A stretch of 64,000 nt of DNA from Pecten maximus (taxonomy: Eukaryota). A program made the position numbers. The stretch covers positions 21,390,001-21,454,000 of the forward strand of contig NC_047019.1 of assembly GCF_902652985.1 (NCBI RefSeq), written 5' to 3'. This document shows, piece after piece, positions 30,001 through 51,000 of this stretch (position 1 is its first letter; each line of letters begins with the position of its first letter).

Positions 30001-33000
30001 CCAATGCATGATCAGGGCCTAGCCTGTCCACGTGTACATGTACATGTTATTGTCATCTGAATGAGAGTGGAATGTATATCATGAAGCCCCTGTGTCTGTG
30101 CATACATCTCGAGGATTCTCGTAGGCGCATCCGCGGCCAGATCGGCTCACACACCCCAATCCCTCGCACGTTCATTCCTAACTATGACAGGGACCAGGGT
30201 ACATGAGTCCCCACTGATGGTTCCCAACTACCTGGCTCTATATTTACCAGAAATATATCAGAAAACCATTCTACAAAGTTTGTGTGATTACATGGCCTCA
30301 CAAGTCTAAATATGCTTCAGGGTAGCCACACCCTCCATTTATACATTTAACTCCCTACAACCAATAATGCGCCAGCTCAAATTGATCAATATTCATTCAG
30401 TCTTGTAGGACTAGCAATGATTTATATAATTTATCTCCGCTTTGTCCTACTTGGCCCCGTCCCTGTGACCCAAGGAGTCACATCAACCATTAATGTTCCA
30501 GATGAAATCTCATCGGAATTGAAATCAGTTCCATCGTTCAAAACTAATACAAATTTCAACTCTTTAGCTCTATTTTCTCTAGTGGCCCGCCCCTATGGCC
30601 TCAAATGAGCCACACCCTCCTTTTATAGAACAATGGATTTCTATTGACAAATAATGATCCGGGACAAATTTGACCAAACTCCATTCAGCTGTTCCTGACT
30701 ACTATCGGACATCGCCATTCGGCCTCGGGGAAGCCACAACATTCGTTTACATAACATTTTTTGTTTTGTTTTGGCAAATAAAGCTCTAGACAAAATTTGA
30801 TCAAAATTCATTTAAATGTTCGGAAAAAGTAATGACATACATTATTTCCCTCTTTCCCTTGTTGTGGCCGCTTCTCCGACCAAACGGTAGCCACACTCCC
30901 CCTGTTATACAAAATTGGACCCCCTTTCTGAATTATTTTCAAGGCCAATTTTAATCAAAATGCATTCAGTTCAGTGCTAGTGGTGACTTAAAGGATTATC
31001 TATTTCCCATATTCAGCCCAGCCCCTCTGGTCTCATGGGAGCCACGCCCTCCGTTTATACAACACGTGATTATTGTTGCCCCATAATGCTTGTGATAAAA
31101 TGATTAAAACTCATAATGTTGTTCAGAAACATTAGCGATCTCAAATATTAACTGATCTATTATCCCTATTGGCCCCCCCCCCCCCCCTTTCTGGGCCTAG
31201 AGGAGTCACACACTCTATACATTTTGATGATTGCCATTTTCAGTAATTACTTATATATTTACTATGTGGTCAAAATCCAATCACCCGTCCAGAATGACGG
31301 TGGTAGCAATTAAAAAAATGTTGACTGACGCTGGCCGGTGTCATGCACAATAATGTTCCTCCTGCACAAATGTATCCGGATTTTTTTTCTTGCATGAAAA
31401 GTATTCGACTATTTTTTGTACTCCTACCAAAAGGTTTCAATCTGCATAAACATATGAAACCTTCCTATACATATAAAAGACACCCTGGTATATTAGCTAT
31501 ATATTACAACTTGTAAGCTGTACGTTGACGTTTTGCAGAAATGAGGAAATCTACTAATCACTCGAAGGCCTATTGCGGTCAGGGAGAAGTCGACTCATCT
31601 GAAATGTGCTCATCTCCACCAGTTGAAGTTGATCTCCTAGTGACAACCTGTAAGAACTCCTTTACGTGTAGGTCTGGTGATATGTCCCTCGACGTCGACG
31701 CCCTGGCTAATGCAGGATGGTGTTGCATAGGTATAAAGACGACTTATCATAATATGACTACAATATGCTCTAATGTACACATATCACAACCAGCATTAAC
31801 AACGTTGATTTAAATCACATGTTTACTGACCAAGCTGTTAGAGCAATTGACATATCTTTATTCTGAAAAAAATGCTTAAGGTAATTAATTCTTTGTCTAT
31901 ACCTATGTCAATATCTTTTACACATATTTTGAATATTTTTCATTTTCCCTATCTGAATCAGCTGTTGTTGCGTATACCGGTTAGTTTTGTAAAATTGTTA
32001 AACGAAATTACGTGACTATGTACTGTTTTTATTATCTGGCGTATTCTTCACCTGAGCGTCATCTTAAATCAAATATCCAAACAACTTTCCTGATATCCAC
32101 ATGCTTATAATTGTATAGTCAATCAAACCAAACGTGAAAAATGATTGCAACGCCCATTGTACCTCATATTATTATTTGATTAATGAGAAAATGTAAGTAT
32201 GCATATTGCTAAAGATGCACGTTATCTATGTTAACTCAGATATATATATTTATTACATTTTTACCAGTGAAATATCAAAAATTATTCATTCTATAAAAGT
32301 GATATTTTTCACTAGTGAAAAATATCATATTTTACTAGTGAAAAATATCACTTTTGCTGATTTGACCAATCAAATTAATGATTAGAAAATACCAAAATAA
32401 TTGACCAATCAGAAAGCCTGACATATATGTCAGCACCTGGACAGGGGAAACTACTTTTTTTGTTTATATTAGGCCTAGTTAGCATACGGGGTAGGTTTTT
32501 CGTTGATAAAAAATGTAATAAACAGAATATCTAACAGTGTCTTCAGTAATACCAAATATATTTCACTCGTGCGGCTAATATTTTGATATTTTTCACTCGT
32601 GCTGCGCACTCTTGAAAAATATCAAAATATTAGCCCCACTCGTGAAATATATTTGGTATTACTGAAGACACTGTTAGATATCCTCTATATCATGTTAAAT
32701 GCTTATATGTAAAATGTTTGTGTACTCCGTAAATATTTGTAACTAGTAAATATATGATTATCTTTTAGAAGATGGACGTATCGAAACATTGTGCTGTCAG
32801 GCTGTCTGGGACAACACGGCTATAGAGGATTTTTGGATGCAACATGTCATTGGTAGTCCTGGATGTCCTTTCCTGAGGCAACAGAAAGGTCAAGCCTACA
32901 TTGATAGTATCCAGGCTGTTTTGACTACAACCACAGATGTGCGTTTATTGAAGTGAAATGAAATGAAATGGCAATGATAAGATTAAAATGTTGTTTATCA

Positions 33001-48000: not shown

Positions 48001-51000
48001 CGTTATTTATTTAACTTGCTAGCGCTTTGTTAATGATTTGTAGAGATGGAGAAATCTGCCAATGAGTCCGATGCCGGTTGCGAGGGAGGTACCGTGTCAT
48101 CTGAGGCTTGCTCAAATCAACCATCAGTTGAAACAGACACCCAATTTGACGTCTGTAAGGAGACCTTTATATATCGGTCATGTGATATGTCTATAGATGT
48201 AGACGCCATGGCTGAAGCAAGATGGTACTGCACAGGTATTTATACGTTCTAATTATCATTTATATGCATAATACTTTTTCAAGTAAAGAAAACAGCACAT
48301 TCTAATTCTATTTTACTAGTCGATCTTAAAATTTATAGTTTCGCAATATAACGCATTGGTTTCGCGATATAACGCGTAAGTTAAAATAAATCATGTATAT
48401 TGCAAATGTTGAATGCCCTTTATAACAATAATACATATACTTTTGTATATCTATCGTGCAGGATATAACACCATTTACAAATGTGTATTAATAACTCTGC
48501 AGTTTTAGATACTTTGTTATATTTAAGGATATGGAGAGGTCAAAACTTGTTGCTGTAAGGCTTTCTGGGACATGGAGGCGACTCAGGATCCCTGGATGCA
48601 GCATGCCATTCAAAGCCCAGGGTGTTCTTTTCTTATAAAACGGAAGGGTCAGACCTACATTGACAACGTCCAGGCCAGTTTACTTGCGGAAGATGTAAGT
48701 ATATCATTCAAGCTATGTATTGCGAAAAATAATAATAATGATGTTCAATTAAAAAAATGTTAGAAAAGAAATTGAACTGTATAATTTTAGATATATACAT
48801 TACAATAATAAGTTTAATGAGTGGATAATCACAAGAATAAGAACAAACATAGGAGTACTACTTTATGATTTTAAAAACAGAAACATAATATTAAGAAATT
48901 ATGAATACCGATTTTGCACTTACCGGTAGAAATTCCAACATTTCAGGTCAAAATAATTTCCCACTTCGACGCTAATAATAAGTTATGTATTTATATGCAG
49001 GAGGAACCGATGACAGCACAATCCGAGGAAGAGTCAGGTAATTTTCAAATTGATTGTTTTGTGTAATGATAACGGCGGTTGTGTTAAATTATTCAACTTT
49101 GACAGAACTAGATATGATAATTAAAAAAGTTCCGCTCCTGGATGGATGAAAAAGGAACCAAATACAAAACTTAACCAACGTCTCAAATCATTTCAAATTT
49201 GGATTAATAATAATTTGAATAACTGTCAAATCTGATTGTACAGAAAAAAAATGTTAGGCCCAAAACAAAAACTTCCATGTAAAAAATATCAAAAAAAAAA
49301 AAAAAAAAAAATCATATAATATTATATATACATTGACCAGTACCTGATAATCTATCATCAATCATAGGACAATCTTAACATTTATGATATTTTCTGTTAT
49401 TTTCAGAACTCGTGATGTTGCAAGAGGAAATTGATACTAGAAAGAAGGAACAAACCTGTTTTGTGTGCCAGGTTAATCCTCGGGAGGTCATTTACTGGCC
49501 ATGCGGGCATTATTCCTGCTGCAAAACATGCCATCCTGCACAGCTTAACTGCCCCAAATGCAAGACAATAATCGAATACAGCATTTTCGCAATCTTGTCT
49601 TAGGAAATCTAAAAATGAGGATGTTCAATCCTTTCCCATGGAATACAAAATCATTCACCAATAGAGTGTACCTAAACAGCAATTCTGTGAATGACGTTAA
49701 GAGTTCATTGTTTTTCCTTCACAATCTCGGTTGTTTTGTGTTGTTACAATTTGTTTTGTCTTTATACGTTAACAGTGTGTGTTTATTTTATGTTTTTCGT
49801 TTTACATAATCGGTAATTGTGTGATCAGCAGGAAATCCATTTTAATGTGAAGTAATTTTAGGCAACCATTCGCCATGACATTGATGTCTAGCAGGTATCA
49901 TCTAACTACATACTATCTTTGTATGTTTATTGTGTAATTATAAAGCTTCGACAACAAATCAAATATTAAGGATAGCATGGATCATCCTTCCAATTGTTTT
50001 CTATTAGCAGTGGTTTACATTTCCTAGTCCTTTTAATTTATTTTATTTATTTTCTCGGTTTTAGTATTTAAATTAGCATTCTTAAAATATAGTATCGAAA
50101 GCTGCGATACAACCTATGTGATTTGAGTAGCAGAAGCACTTTAGCGTTATAAATAAGATTGTGTTTGTGATGATATTTCCTGTTGAACTTTCTGTTACTG
50201 TGTAATAAGTACCCTCAAAAGGTTATGTTGTGTTAGAATGATGTAAGCCTAGGGACTTAATGTAACCCTTGTTAAAGAAACATCAGGGTAAATATCCGTG
50301 ACGAGGTCAAAAGGTCAAATCTGGAAATTAATCAATTTATTAAGGGCGGCAGTGTCACCTGGGTGATACATACCTCGGTGTTAAGTTATGCGGGAGCGGT
50401 CATGGATAATGTTTTAAGTTACCACATGTTAGTTTTGTAAGATAAATTTCAATATTACTATAAATCTAACCGTGTTAAGTTTTTATAAACCATCACACTA
50501 GCACATAAAACGCTGCAGATGGATTAAATATTTAAAACGCATTTCAGATCCTTACATCAGGTATTTTAACGATTTATTGTTGTACAAAGCATCTAAATGA
50601 TTTATTTTAATCTGTTGAAAAGACTTGTTTCGTTTTAAGATTTTTAGGGCTTTAAAAAGGTCACGAAAGTGATAAATCTTTATTATTATTATTTATATAT
50701 TCTATATGGTTGTTAAATATTGAAATTCTATGCAATTGTTTAAGTTCGAACATTTTTTCCTAACTCATTGTACTTATATGACTTTAGTCTTGTAGTTCAA
50801 AATTCTGTGTAAATGGGTCCATAGAAGGGCTGTGAATTAAAAAAAGTGTGACGTACTCGAGTGATATTTCTTGTCCTAAAGGGAATTACATCTCCAGATA
50901 TGTGATGAATTGAATCTTACATTCGTTACAATGTGATTGTTTCATTTTGAAGGTGATGACATCGTAACAGGTTATCATATGCATTTTCGACTATTTCGCC

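What the first reader, a model, noticed from the sequence alone, without database searches (positions are those of the whole stretch)
31541..48694. Shared non-canonical BIR zinc site: T-x-CC-x15-H-x6-C instead of C-x2-C-x16-H-x6-C
Seen in three diverged paralogs: IETLCC, VTTLCC and VKTCCC, each followed by 15 residues to His and then x6-Cys. The first canonical Cys is replaced by Thr. The N-terminal conserved Arg is Cys in all three (CKNSF, CKDSF, CKETF), and AGF becomes AGW/ARW. Retention of vicinal CC, H, C and the new N-terminal Cys despite high divergence elsewhere suggests a re-wired metal site rather than random decay (inference). This may be an undescribed BIR subtype that profile searches miss.
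[Added by the scan's program, not by the reader: the finding's places include an assembly gap (unread letters, written N; its length is only estimated) at 43852 to 43951. Whether the letters on both sides are continuous or in frame is not known: test that first.]
Basis: partly seen in the sequence, partly recalled or inferred. Interest (0 to 1): 0.72.

Follow-up and report, generated by a model that had tools for sequence, protein, structure and literature searches.

The report
Scallop BIR domain lacking one zinc cysteine
A tandem cluster of small king-scallop IAP-like ubiquitin ligases carries a conserved BIR domain in which one of the four zinc-binding residues is threonine, a change already named in oysters and here seen as a separate scallop lineage.

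Summary
Three + strand paralogs carry T-x-C-C-x15-H-x6-C, a Cys where BIR domains have their N-terminal Arg, and AGW/ARW for AGF. The N gap (43852-43951) lies between copy 2 and copy 3 and touches no exon.

The genes are four-exon BIR-RING genes of Pecten maximus. Their spliced products are already in public protein sets as IAP-like proteins. Orthologs in Mizuhopecten and Argopecten keep the signature, with Ser for Thr in Mizuhopecten. The zinc-site exon has dN/dS of 0.27-0.30, like the RING exon. AlphaFold models match cIAP1 BIR3. So this is not decay.

- The vicinal CC is the ordinary CFCC of BIR3-like domains.
- Thr at the first zinc Cys is already described in oysters as "NZBIR".
- Pfam finds two of the three copies.
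- A re-wired metal site could not be tested, because no coordinates are available.
- The closest canonical relatives have already lost the Arg while keeping a full CCHC site.

Verdict: a scallop-specific variant of a known degenerate BIR type, of modest interest.

The parts
31541..31730 (+). Copy 1, exon 1: start codon, disordered N-terminus and first half of the variant BIR (C-K-N-S-F, AGW). Phase-1 GT donor.
   Evidence: The public model P0151 starts at a later ATG.
32769..32938 (+). Copy 1, exon 2: second half of the BIR with T-L-C-C-x15-H-x6-C. The donor is GTGCGT.
33136..33280 (+). Copy 1, exon 3: acidic linker made of 45-bp repeats.
35025..35215 (+). Copy 1, exon 4: coiled segment plus C3HC4 RING, ending in the stop codon.
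40676..40847 (+). Copy 2, exon 1 (C-K-D-S-F, ARW).
   Evidence: The spliced product equals public protein P0002.
41025..41185 (+). Copy 2, exon 2 (T-L-C-C-x15-H-x6-C).
   Evidence: On its own this exon scores 29.3 bits against Pfam BIR.
41436..41535 (+). Copy 2, exon 3: linker repeats.
41925..42121 (+). Copy 2, exon 4: RING and stop codon.
43852..43951 (.). Assembly gap in the intergenic stretch between copy 2 and copy 3. It is not part of any exon.
48046..48235 (+). Copy 3, exon 1 (C-K-E-T-F, ARW).
   Evidence: The spliced product equals public protein P0001.
48528..48694 (+). Copy 3, exon 2 (T-C-C-C-x15-H-x6-C).
49001..49037 (+). Copy 3, exon 3: short linker.
49407..49603 (+). Copy 3, exon 4: RING and stop codon.
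18784..19919 (+). Copy A, a fourth paralog. An in-frame deletion has fused the start of exon 1 to the His-x6-Cys end of exon 2, removing the BIR core and the intron. Its exons are 18784-18972, 19150-19264 and 19723-19919. The RING is intact.
   Evidence: It equals public protein P0153, which has a RING match but no BIR match in Pfam.

Best explanation
The window holds a tandem array of small (about 166-231 aa) IAP-family RING E3 ligase genes of the king scallop.

Their single BIR domain is a scallop-lineage derivative of a canonical BIR, with these changes:
- First zinc Cys to Thr (Ser in Mizuhopecten).
- 'Padlock' Arg to Cys.
- AGF to AGW/ARW.
- One residue lost from the loop after the second ligand Cys.

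Shown:
- The genes are intact four-exon units and are already annotated.
- The variant domain is predicted to keep the BIR3-like fold.
- The exon carrying the zinc site evolves under purifying selection as strong as on the RING.
- The remaining ligands (Cys, His, Cys) are invariant across three genera.

Inferred:
- The domain still holds a metal with three protein ligands. The fourth position is filled by water, the conserved Thr/Ser hydroxyl, or possibly the neighbouring Cys.
- It serves as a structural or protein-binding module rather than a classical Smac/caspase (IBM) binder. Counting back from the ligand His in the family alignment, the positions I equate with L307, W310, E314 and W323 vary within the family.
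- The RING provides ubiquitin-ligase and dimerisation activity.
- Arg-to-Cys together with Phe-to-Trp is most simply a re-packing of the first structural hot spot, not a new metal ligand.
For: - Gene models: GT/AG at every junction, exon totals of 696, 630, 591 and 501 nt (all divisible by 3), and matching intron phases once the small linker exon was found.
- The models reproduce the public proteins P0002 (209 aa), P0001 (196 aa) and P0153 (166 aa), which sources name as P. maximus IAP-like proteins.
- Orthologs P0152 (Mizuhopecten yessoensis) and P0100 (Argopecten irradians) keep Cys, Trp, [TS]-x-C-C, x15, His, x6, Cys.
- Nei-Gojobori dN/dS: exon 2 0.27-0.30 (Fisher p 0.0004-0.002, 3 of 3 pairs); RING exon 0.23 and 0.29 in the two pairs where dS could be computed, with all three pairs having pN well below pS (Fisher p 8e-7 to 6e-4); exon 1 0.45-0.59.
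- Introns do not align between copies, whereas the exons do.
- Fold: the AlphaFold2 model of P0002 (53-sequence alignment) has pLDDT 83-97 over the BIR. Foldseek matches cIAP1 BIR3 with TM about 0.8 and rmsd 1.6 A.
- Control: the most divergent copy, with a family-only 5-sequence alignment, gave BIR pLDDT 65-91 and TM 0.73-0.76 to the same structures.
- Pfam finds BIR plus zf-C3HC4_3, and the nearest Atlas clusters are all BIR.
- The five family BIRs form one clade (SH-like support 0.87). It is sister to canonical BIRs.
- The variant shares intron position and phase with the canonical BIR2 of the neighbouring genes.
- Role of the Arg, from passages read in Cossu 2019 (PMC6360406): it hydrogen-bonds to main-chain atoms and packs on the Gly of AGF and the Phe of CFxC. 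This is a fold 'padlock', not a metal ligand.
Against: - No metal, binding or expression data exist here.
- The models are predictions. The first used canonical BIRs in its alignment, and no coordinates were returned, so the site geometry is unknown.
- Structural zinc sites with only three protein ligands are unusual (my knowledge), so either a fourth ligand or loss of metal is possible.
- Exon 1, which carries the new Cys and Trp, is less constrained (dN/dS 0.45-0.59, significant in 1 of 3 pairs).
- Copy A has lost the BIR core yet keeps an open frame. This shows the BIR can be dispensed with. Its RING is not significantly constrained against copies 1 and 2 (omega 0.5-0.6, p 0.09-0.27).
- Only five BIR-bearing family members were available, three of them paralogs from one genome.
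Confidence: 0.6

Rival explanations
1. Re-wired tetrahedral zinc site. The Cys that replaces the N-terminal Arg (C31 of P0002), or the first Cys of the CC pair (C66), takes over as fourth ligand from the lost first Cys.
For: - C31 and C66 are invariant in 5 of 5 family BIRs, alongside C67, H83 and C90.
- Cys at the Arg column is otherwise very rare. Arg fills 332 of 338 filled columns, and the only Cys there is a family member.
- In cIAP1 BIR3 the Arg side chain touches the Phe that lies between the two ligand Cys (Cossu 2019). The position is therefore in the second shell of the zinc knuckle.
Against: - Geometry was not measurable, because no coordinates were returned.
- The Arg packs on the face of the CFxC Phe, and a short Cys side chain would need a backbone shift to reach the metal (inference).
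- C66 is an ancestral, common, non-ligand residue (69 of 379 BIRs, and cIAP1 BIR3).
- Adjacent Cys rarely bind one ion (my knowledge).
- The sister BIRs P0009 and P0011 lack the Arg but keep all four canonical ligands, and P0009 has a Cys one residue later.
- Three other proteins' BIRs that lack the first Cys (P0097, P0101, P0037) keep the Arg. A new Cys is therefore not required when the first Cys is lost.
Confidence: 0.12
2. Metal-free vestigial BIR. The domain no longer binds zinc and is kept only as a spacer or fold remnant. The proteins act through the RING alone, and the BIR is on its way to loss.
For: - The authors who described the Thr variant in oysters proposed loss of zinc binding (Witkop 2022).
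- All three fold 'hot spots' of Cossu 2019 are altered.
- Copy A has deleted the BIR core in frame and is still annotated as a gene.
- Pfam scores are low, and copy 1 falls below the cut-off.
Against: - The exon carrying the remaining ligands is as constrained as the RING (omega about 0.3).
- The three remaining ligand positions are invariant across three genera. With 26% of columns invariant, chance is about 0.26^3 = 0.02.
- The hydroxyl residue at the lost-Cys position is itself conserved (T, T, T, S, T).
- A confident BIR fold is predicted.
Confidence: 0.2
3. Decaying pseudogene copies whose motif similarity only reflects recent duplication.
For: - Tandem arrays of IAP genes in bivalves turn over quickly (Witkop 2022; Ribeiro Lopes 2026; passages read).
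- Copy A carries a large deletion.
Against: - All four copies keep open frames, start codons, GT/AG sites and compatible phases.
- Synonymous divergence between copies is high (dS 0.6-1.3) while dN/dS is 0.31-0.37 overall.
- Orthologs in other genera have the same signature.
- All eight RING ligand positions are invariant in 6 of 6 proteins.
Confidence: 0.04

Closest known systems
Oyster 'NZBIR' (non-zinc-binding BIR) of Crassostrea gigas and C. virginica, Witkop et al. 2022, PMC8917759
   Same: - It is defined by Thr in place of the first zinc-coordinating Cys (C57 in that paper's numbering), with secondary structure predicted unchanged.
- It is also found in a bivalve with an expanded IAP family (passages read).
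   Different: - The four oyster genes are BIRC2/3-like. There the NZBIR replaces the type I BIR and is followed by a type II BIR; three of the four also carry UBA, DD and RING.
- Here the variant BIR is the only BIR of a roughly 200-aa BIR-linker-RING protein.
- The passages read do not mention Arg-to-Cys, Phe-to-Trp or the x15 spacing.
- Orthology could not be tested. No oyster NZBIR sequence was at hand, the paper's supplements are closed, and figures are not held.
Type II BIR3 of human cIAP1/XIAP (for example PDB 3D9T, 3MUP, 1G73)
   Same: - It is the best sequence and fold match.
- It shares the C-F-C-C knuckle (T-L-C-C here), the D-P-W-x-x-H helix, P-x-C-x-F-L and the following K-G-Q-x-[FY]-[IV]-D helix.
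   Different: - First ligand Cys to Thr.
- Padlock Arg to Cys.
- Gly of AGF to Arg in copies 2 and 3.
- Loop after the second Cys one residue shorter.
- Positions I equate with the IBM-groove residues L307, W310, E314 and W323 vary within the family (register counted by me).
Single-BIR plus RING IAPs (BIRC7/livin-like architecture)
   Same: - One BIR followed by a C-terminal zf-C3HC4_3 RING.
- Sources name the scallop proteins XIAP-like, BIRC7-B-like or DIAP2-like.
   Different: These proteins are shorter, have a repeat-built acidic linker exon, and carry the BIR variant described above. That livin has a canonical CCHC BIR is my recollection, not a call.

Membership tests
BIR domain (Pfam PF00653) | Profile score at or above the curated cut-off (22.9 bits). 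| tested here: inconclusive
   Whole public proteins: copy 2 34.6 bits, copy 3 23.5, copy 1 15.1 (below cut-off). Orthologs score 46.1 and 29.0. Exon by exon, only exon 2 of copy 2 passes.
BIR domain (Pfam PF00653) | CCHC zinc ligands spaced C-x2-C-x16-H-x6-C. | tested here: not met
   The first Cys is Thr (Ser in Mizuhopecten) and the spacing is x15 in 5 of 5 family BIRs. In the comparison set the first Cys is present in 370 of 379 BIR domains.
BIR domain (Pfam PF00653) | BIR fold: a three-stranded sheet with surrounding helices. | tested here: met
   This rests on predicted models only. TM is about 0.8 (rmsd 1.6 A) and 0.73-0.76 (rmsd about 2.4 A) to cIAP1 BIR3.
BIR domain (Pfam PF00653) | Conserved N-terminal 'padlock' Arg (R266 of cIAP1 BIR3). 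| tested here: not met
   It is Cys in 5 of 5 family BIRs. Arg fills 332 of 338 filled columns in the comparison set.
Type II (IBM-binding) BIR | Conserved groove residues (L307, W310, E314, W323 in XIAP/cIAP1 BIR3 numbering). | tested here: not met
   I counted back from the ligand His in the family alignment against the residues listed by Cossu 2019. Trp stands at the 310 position in 2 of 5. The 323 position reads Y, Q, G, H, H, and the 307 and 314 positions vary. The register is my inference, and binding was not tested.
Oyster NZBIR type (Witkop 2022) | Thr at the first zinc-coordinating Cys. | tested here: met
   Thr in the 3 window copies and in Argopecten, Ser in Mizuhopecten. The definition comes from passages read.
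Oyster NZBIR type (Witkop 2022) | Common descent with, and the same architecture as, the oyster NZBIR genes (NZBIR, type II BIR, UBA, DD, RING). | not testable with these tools
   The architecture differs (one BIR plus RING). The other first-Cys-less BIRs in the set that could be placed in the tree (P0097, P0037) lie outside the scallop clade; the placement of P0101 is unresolved (zero support).
IAP-type RING (Pfam PF13920 zf-C3HC4_3) | Profile score above the cut-off and all eight Cys/His ligands present. | tested here: met
   Scores are 35.6-43.4 bits against a cut-off of 27 in 6 of 6 proteins. The ligand columns are invariant in 6 of 6.

The most novel reading that the evidence does not exclude
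The scallop family may have a new BIR metal-site topology, conserved since before Pecten, Mizuhopecten and Argopecten split. In this reading the lost first Cys is functionally replaced by the Cys that took the place of the padlock Arg, or by the vicinal Cys. The BIR would then tie its N-terminal helix directly to the zinc knuckle.
Probability: 0.12. Interest if true: 0.5.

Novelty: new variant of a known kind. Interest (0 to 1): 0.3.

Why it matters
Bivalve IAP families are hugely expanded, and their odd BIR types have so far only been catalogued. Large surveys even discard BIRs with ligand substitutions before building trees (Ribeiro Lopes 2026, passage read).

This case shows that one such 'defective' BIR is not junk. 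It has been held under selection in several scallop genera, with a fixed set of co-occurring changes. It offers a small (about 85-residue), easily expressed natural test of how far a BIR zinc site and its Arg padlock can be altered while the fold survives.

It does not open a long-standing question, and the key change is already named in oysters.

Tried and rejected
- Exon-by-exon Pfam scan: only 2 of 6 exon peptides hit BIR, which is too short to judge. Whole public proteins were used instead.
- A first tally of BIR motifs by regular expression and with the exon-2 profile was unreliable. It caught RING fingers and overlapping matches, and local alignments stopped before the first Cys. I replaced it with a BIR profile built from the hits themselves.
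- Protein search for longer proteins with the BIR region of P0002 found nothing: 8 candidates, none significant. This is weak evidence only.
- Hard-clam and Yesso-scallop IAP papers (passages only): no mention of this variant.
- Literature searches made. 'NZBIR' as a protein term appears in only one paper. I found nothing in print on the scallop variant. The library is partial and supplements are closed.
- The idea that the variant BIR is a copy of the neighbouring canonical genes' BIR2: only weak similarity (9 of 22 identities) plus shared intron position and phase. The tree instead places BIR1 of P0009 and P0011 as sister. The question is left open.
No tblastn of other mollusc genomes was possible.

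
Full report
**What is there**

The window is AT-rich (about 35% G+C) eukaryotic DNA. Each lies in a short open stretch. The single N run, 43852-43951, is the only gap.

**Gene structure**

tblastn of the open stretches against the window showed a tandem series of related units, each ending in a RING-finger exon. 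I read the junctions directly.
- Exon 1 ends with a phase-1 GT donor just after the A-G/R-W segment.
- Exon 2 begins with a phase-1 AG acceptor and carries T-x-C-C-x15-H-x6-C.
- The phase-0 donor of exon 2 did not fit the phase-1 acceptor of the RING exon. blastn between the copies revealed a conserved block in the intervening intron.
- That block is a small linker exon built of 45-bp repeats. It has a phase-0 acceptor and a phase-1 donor.
- With it, all copies give GT/AG junctions and coding totals of 696, 630, 591 and 501 nt, each divisible by three.

I searched the model exon by exon and did not join the exons myself. The joined step was left out. The spliced proteins used afterwards are public database entries returned by the searches. 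P0002 (209 aa) and P0001 (196 aa) are letter for letter what my models of copies 2 and 3 predict in length and order. P0153 (166 aa) corresponds to copy A, and P0151 (210 aa) to copy 1 from a later ATG.

**The gap**

Copy 2 ends at 42121 and copy 3 starts at 48046. No exon-like match lies between 42122 and 47991, and the gap's flanks are non-coding. The gap is therefore intergenic, and whether its sides are continuous or in frame has no bearing on the motifs. The spacing of copies 2 and 3, and the absence of a further copy, cannot be vouched for.

**Organism and relatives**

Sources name P0002, P0151 and P0153 as IAP-like proteins of Pecten maximus, on a 51.4-Mb contig.
- An exhaustive profile search with the three exon-2 peptides gave 462 hits at E <= 0.001. 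Only 2 hits reached E <= 1e-30, and both are the window's own products.
- Word-seeded searches added P0152 (Mizuhopecten yessoensis) and P0100 (Argopecten irradians).
- Both orthologs carry C-R-E-S-F, A-G-W, [S/T]-x-C-C, x15, His, x6, Cys.
- A search for longer proteins with the BIR region found nothing.

**Is it a BIR, and which residues changed?**

Pfam finds BIR plus zf-C3HC4_3 in the whole proteins. BIR scores are 34.6 (copy 2), 23.5 (copy 3) and 15.1 (copy 1) bits against a cut-off of 22.9.

A family profile matches cIAP1 BIR3 best among solved structures. It aligns T-L-C-C with C-F-C-C and places one gap after the second Cys.

I built a BIR profile from the hits and tallied 379 BIR domains in 156 proteins:
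- The first ligand is Cys in 370, Thr in 5, Ser in 3 and Ala in 1.
- The second Cys, His and last Cys are present in 378, 379 and 378.
- The Arg column is Arg in 332 of 338 filled cells.
- The residue before the second Cys is Cys in 69.

Three conclusions follow:
- The first-Cys loss is rare.
- The 'vicinal CC' is ordinary.
- The combination of Cys at the Arg column, Trp for Phe and Thr/Ser for Cys is confined to the scallop family in this set.
- The other first-Cys-less BIRs (in P0097, P0101 and P0037) keep Arg and Phe.

**Fold**

AlphaFold2 on P0002 with a 53-sequence alignment gave pLDDT 83-97 across the BIR. Foldseek matched cIAP1 BIR3 at TM about 0.8, rmsd 1.6 A and 36% identity.

That alignment contained canonical BIRs, so I ran a control. 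The most divergent copy (P0151), with only five family sequences, still gave pLDDT 65-91 over the BIR and the same top matches (TM 0.73-0.76). The Atlas's nearest clusters are all BIR.

**Selection**

Pairwise Nei-Gojobori estimates were made exon by exon, with Fisher tests:
- Exon 2: dN/dS 0.27-0.30 (p 0.0004-0.002 in 3 of 3 pairs).
- RING exon: 0.23 and 0.29 in the two pairs where dS could be computed; the third pair has saturated synonymous sites. All three pairs have p <= 0.0006.
- Exon 1: 0.45-0.59 (p < 0.05 in 1 of 3 pairs).

Synonymous divergence is high (dS 0.6-1.3), and introns no longer align. Among five BIR-bearing proteins, 21 of 82 columns are invariant. These include C31, W54, C66, C67, H83 and C90, and the lost-Cys position reads T, T, T, S, T. 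The Thr codons are ACA, ACA and ACT, and the Cys codons are TGT in all three. This is not decay.

**Against a re-wired site**

Passages read in Cossu 2019 describe the Arg as a fold 'padlock'. [quoted passage not shown] It lies close to the knuckle but is not a ligand.

In a FastTree of 347 BIR domains the five family BIRs form a clade (support 0.87). Their sisters (0.86-0.90) are BIR1 of P0009 and P0011, then a BIR of P0124.
- P0009 and P0011 have the canonical C-x2-C-x16-H-x6-C.
- Both already lack the Arg (Gln and Asn).
- P0009 has a Cys one residue later.
- Neither is encoded in the window.

The Arg loss therefore seems to precede, or be independent of, the Cys loss. Arg-to-Cys with Phe-to-Trp (and Gly-to-Arg in copies 2 and 3) reads more simply as re-packing of that hot spot. 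This is inference from a short-domain tree and anonymous sequences.

**Function**

Counting back from the ligand His, the positions I equate with the IBM-groove residues named by Cossu 2019 vary within the family. Trp stands at position 310 in 2 of 5, and position 323 reads Y, Q, G, H, H. Classical Smac or caspase tail binding is therefore unlikely to be the conserved function; this is an inference.

All eight RING ligands are invariant in 6 of 6 proteins. Copy A has lost the BIR core by an in-frame deletion yet keeps its frame and RING. Its RING is not significantly constrained against copies 1 and 2.

**What is known**

Witkop et al. 2022 (PMC8917759, passages read) describe in both Crassostrea species a BIR with Thr at the first coordinating Cys.
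- They predict unchanged secondary structure and possible loss of zinc binding, and they name it NZBIR.
- It occurs in four BIRC2/3-like genes, upstream of a type II BIR. Three of them also have UBA, DD and RING.
- They reported it as absent from other organisms by blastp.

The scallop domain meets that definition but sits alone in a roughly 200-aa BIR-RING protein and carries further changes. Whether the two share an origin could not be tested, because figures and supplements are not held. Ribeiro Lopes et al. 2026 (passage) removed BIRs with ligand substitutions from their phylogeny, although P. maximus was in their data. The Yesso-scallop and hard-clam IAP papers do not mention the variant in the passages found. 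Searches found nothing else.

**Verdict**

This is a scallop-lineage variant of an already named degenerate BIR type, maintained by selection. Its metal chemistry is unresolved.

Noticed in passing
window 18784-19919 (+): A fourth paralog (copy A) has an in-frame deletion that joins the start of exon 1 to the His-x6-Cys end of exon 2. The deletion removes the BIR core and the intron. The frame, linker exon and RING are intact, and the product is in public sets as a BIRC7-B-like protein (P0153).
   Followed up: partly
window 832-1161 and about 2416-2613 (+): This is the 3' part of a further, more divergent family member (copy 0). It has a Pro/Gln-rich stretch of 30-bp repeats (925-1049) and a RING exon with the same phase-1 acceptor. 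Its BIR exons, if any, lie off the window's start.
   Followed up: no
window 33136-33280, 41436-41535, 49001-49037, 19150-19264: The linker exon is made of 45-bp repeats and differs in length between paralogs (145, 100, 37 and 115 nt). The Argopecten ortholog P0100 has a much longer repeat-rich linker.
   Followed up: partly
window 55417-56266 and 60765-61558 (+): Two neighbouring genes have two canonical BIRs each. Their second BIR keeps Arg, AGF and C-F-C-C-x16-H-x6-C. In the first gene it is split by an intron at the same position and phase as the variant BIR; the second gene's junction was not read. The loop of the first gene's BIR2 contains no Trp. No RING exon was found for them with the family's RING as query.
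   Followed up: partly
window 40835-40837 and 48223-48225 (codon of the Gly in A-G-F): In copies 2 and 3 the near-invariant Gly of AGF (351 of 356 filled cells in the comparison set) is Arg. This Gly is a contact of the lost padlock Arg in cIAP1 BIR3, so a possible compensatory swap. Copy 1 and both orthologs keep Gly.
   Followed up: no
window 21542-25297: A 36-bp minisatellite of about 104 copies lies between copy A and copy 1. It reads as long open frames in one strand, which are artefacts of the repeat.
   Followed up: no
window 11297-12781 (+): A 494-aa open frame has no Pfam match and is preceded by a 22-bp tandem repeat (11246-11366). It may be a mobile-element gene. Nearby, near-identical open stretches lie on opposite strands (14706-14984 on the minus strand and 15425-15748 on the plus strand), which suggests an inverted duplication.
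   Followed up: partly
window 5138-6601, 46823-47435, 60231-60583, 63163-64000: There are several further tandem arrays, with periods of 155, 51, 44 and 52 bp. The last one runs to the end of the window.
   Followed up: no
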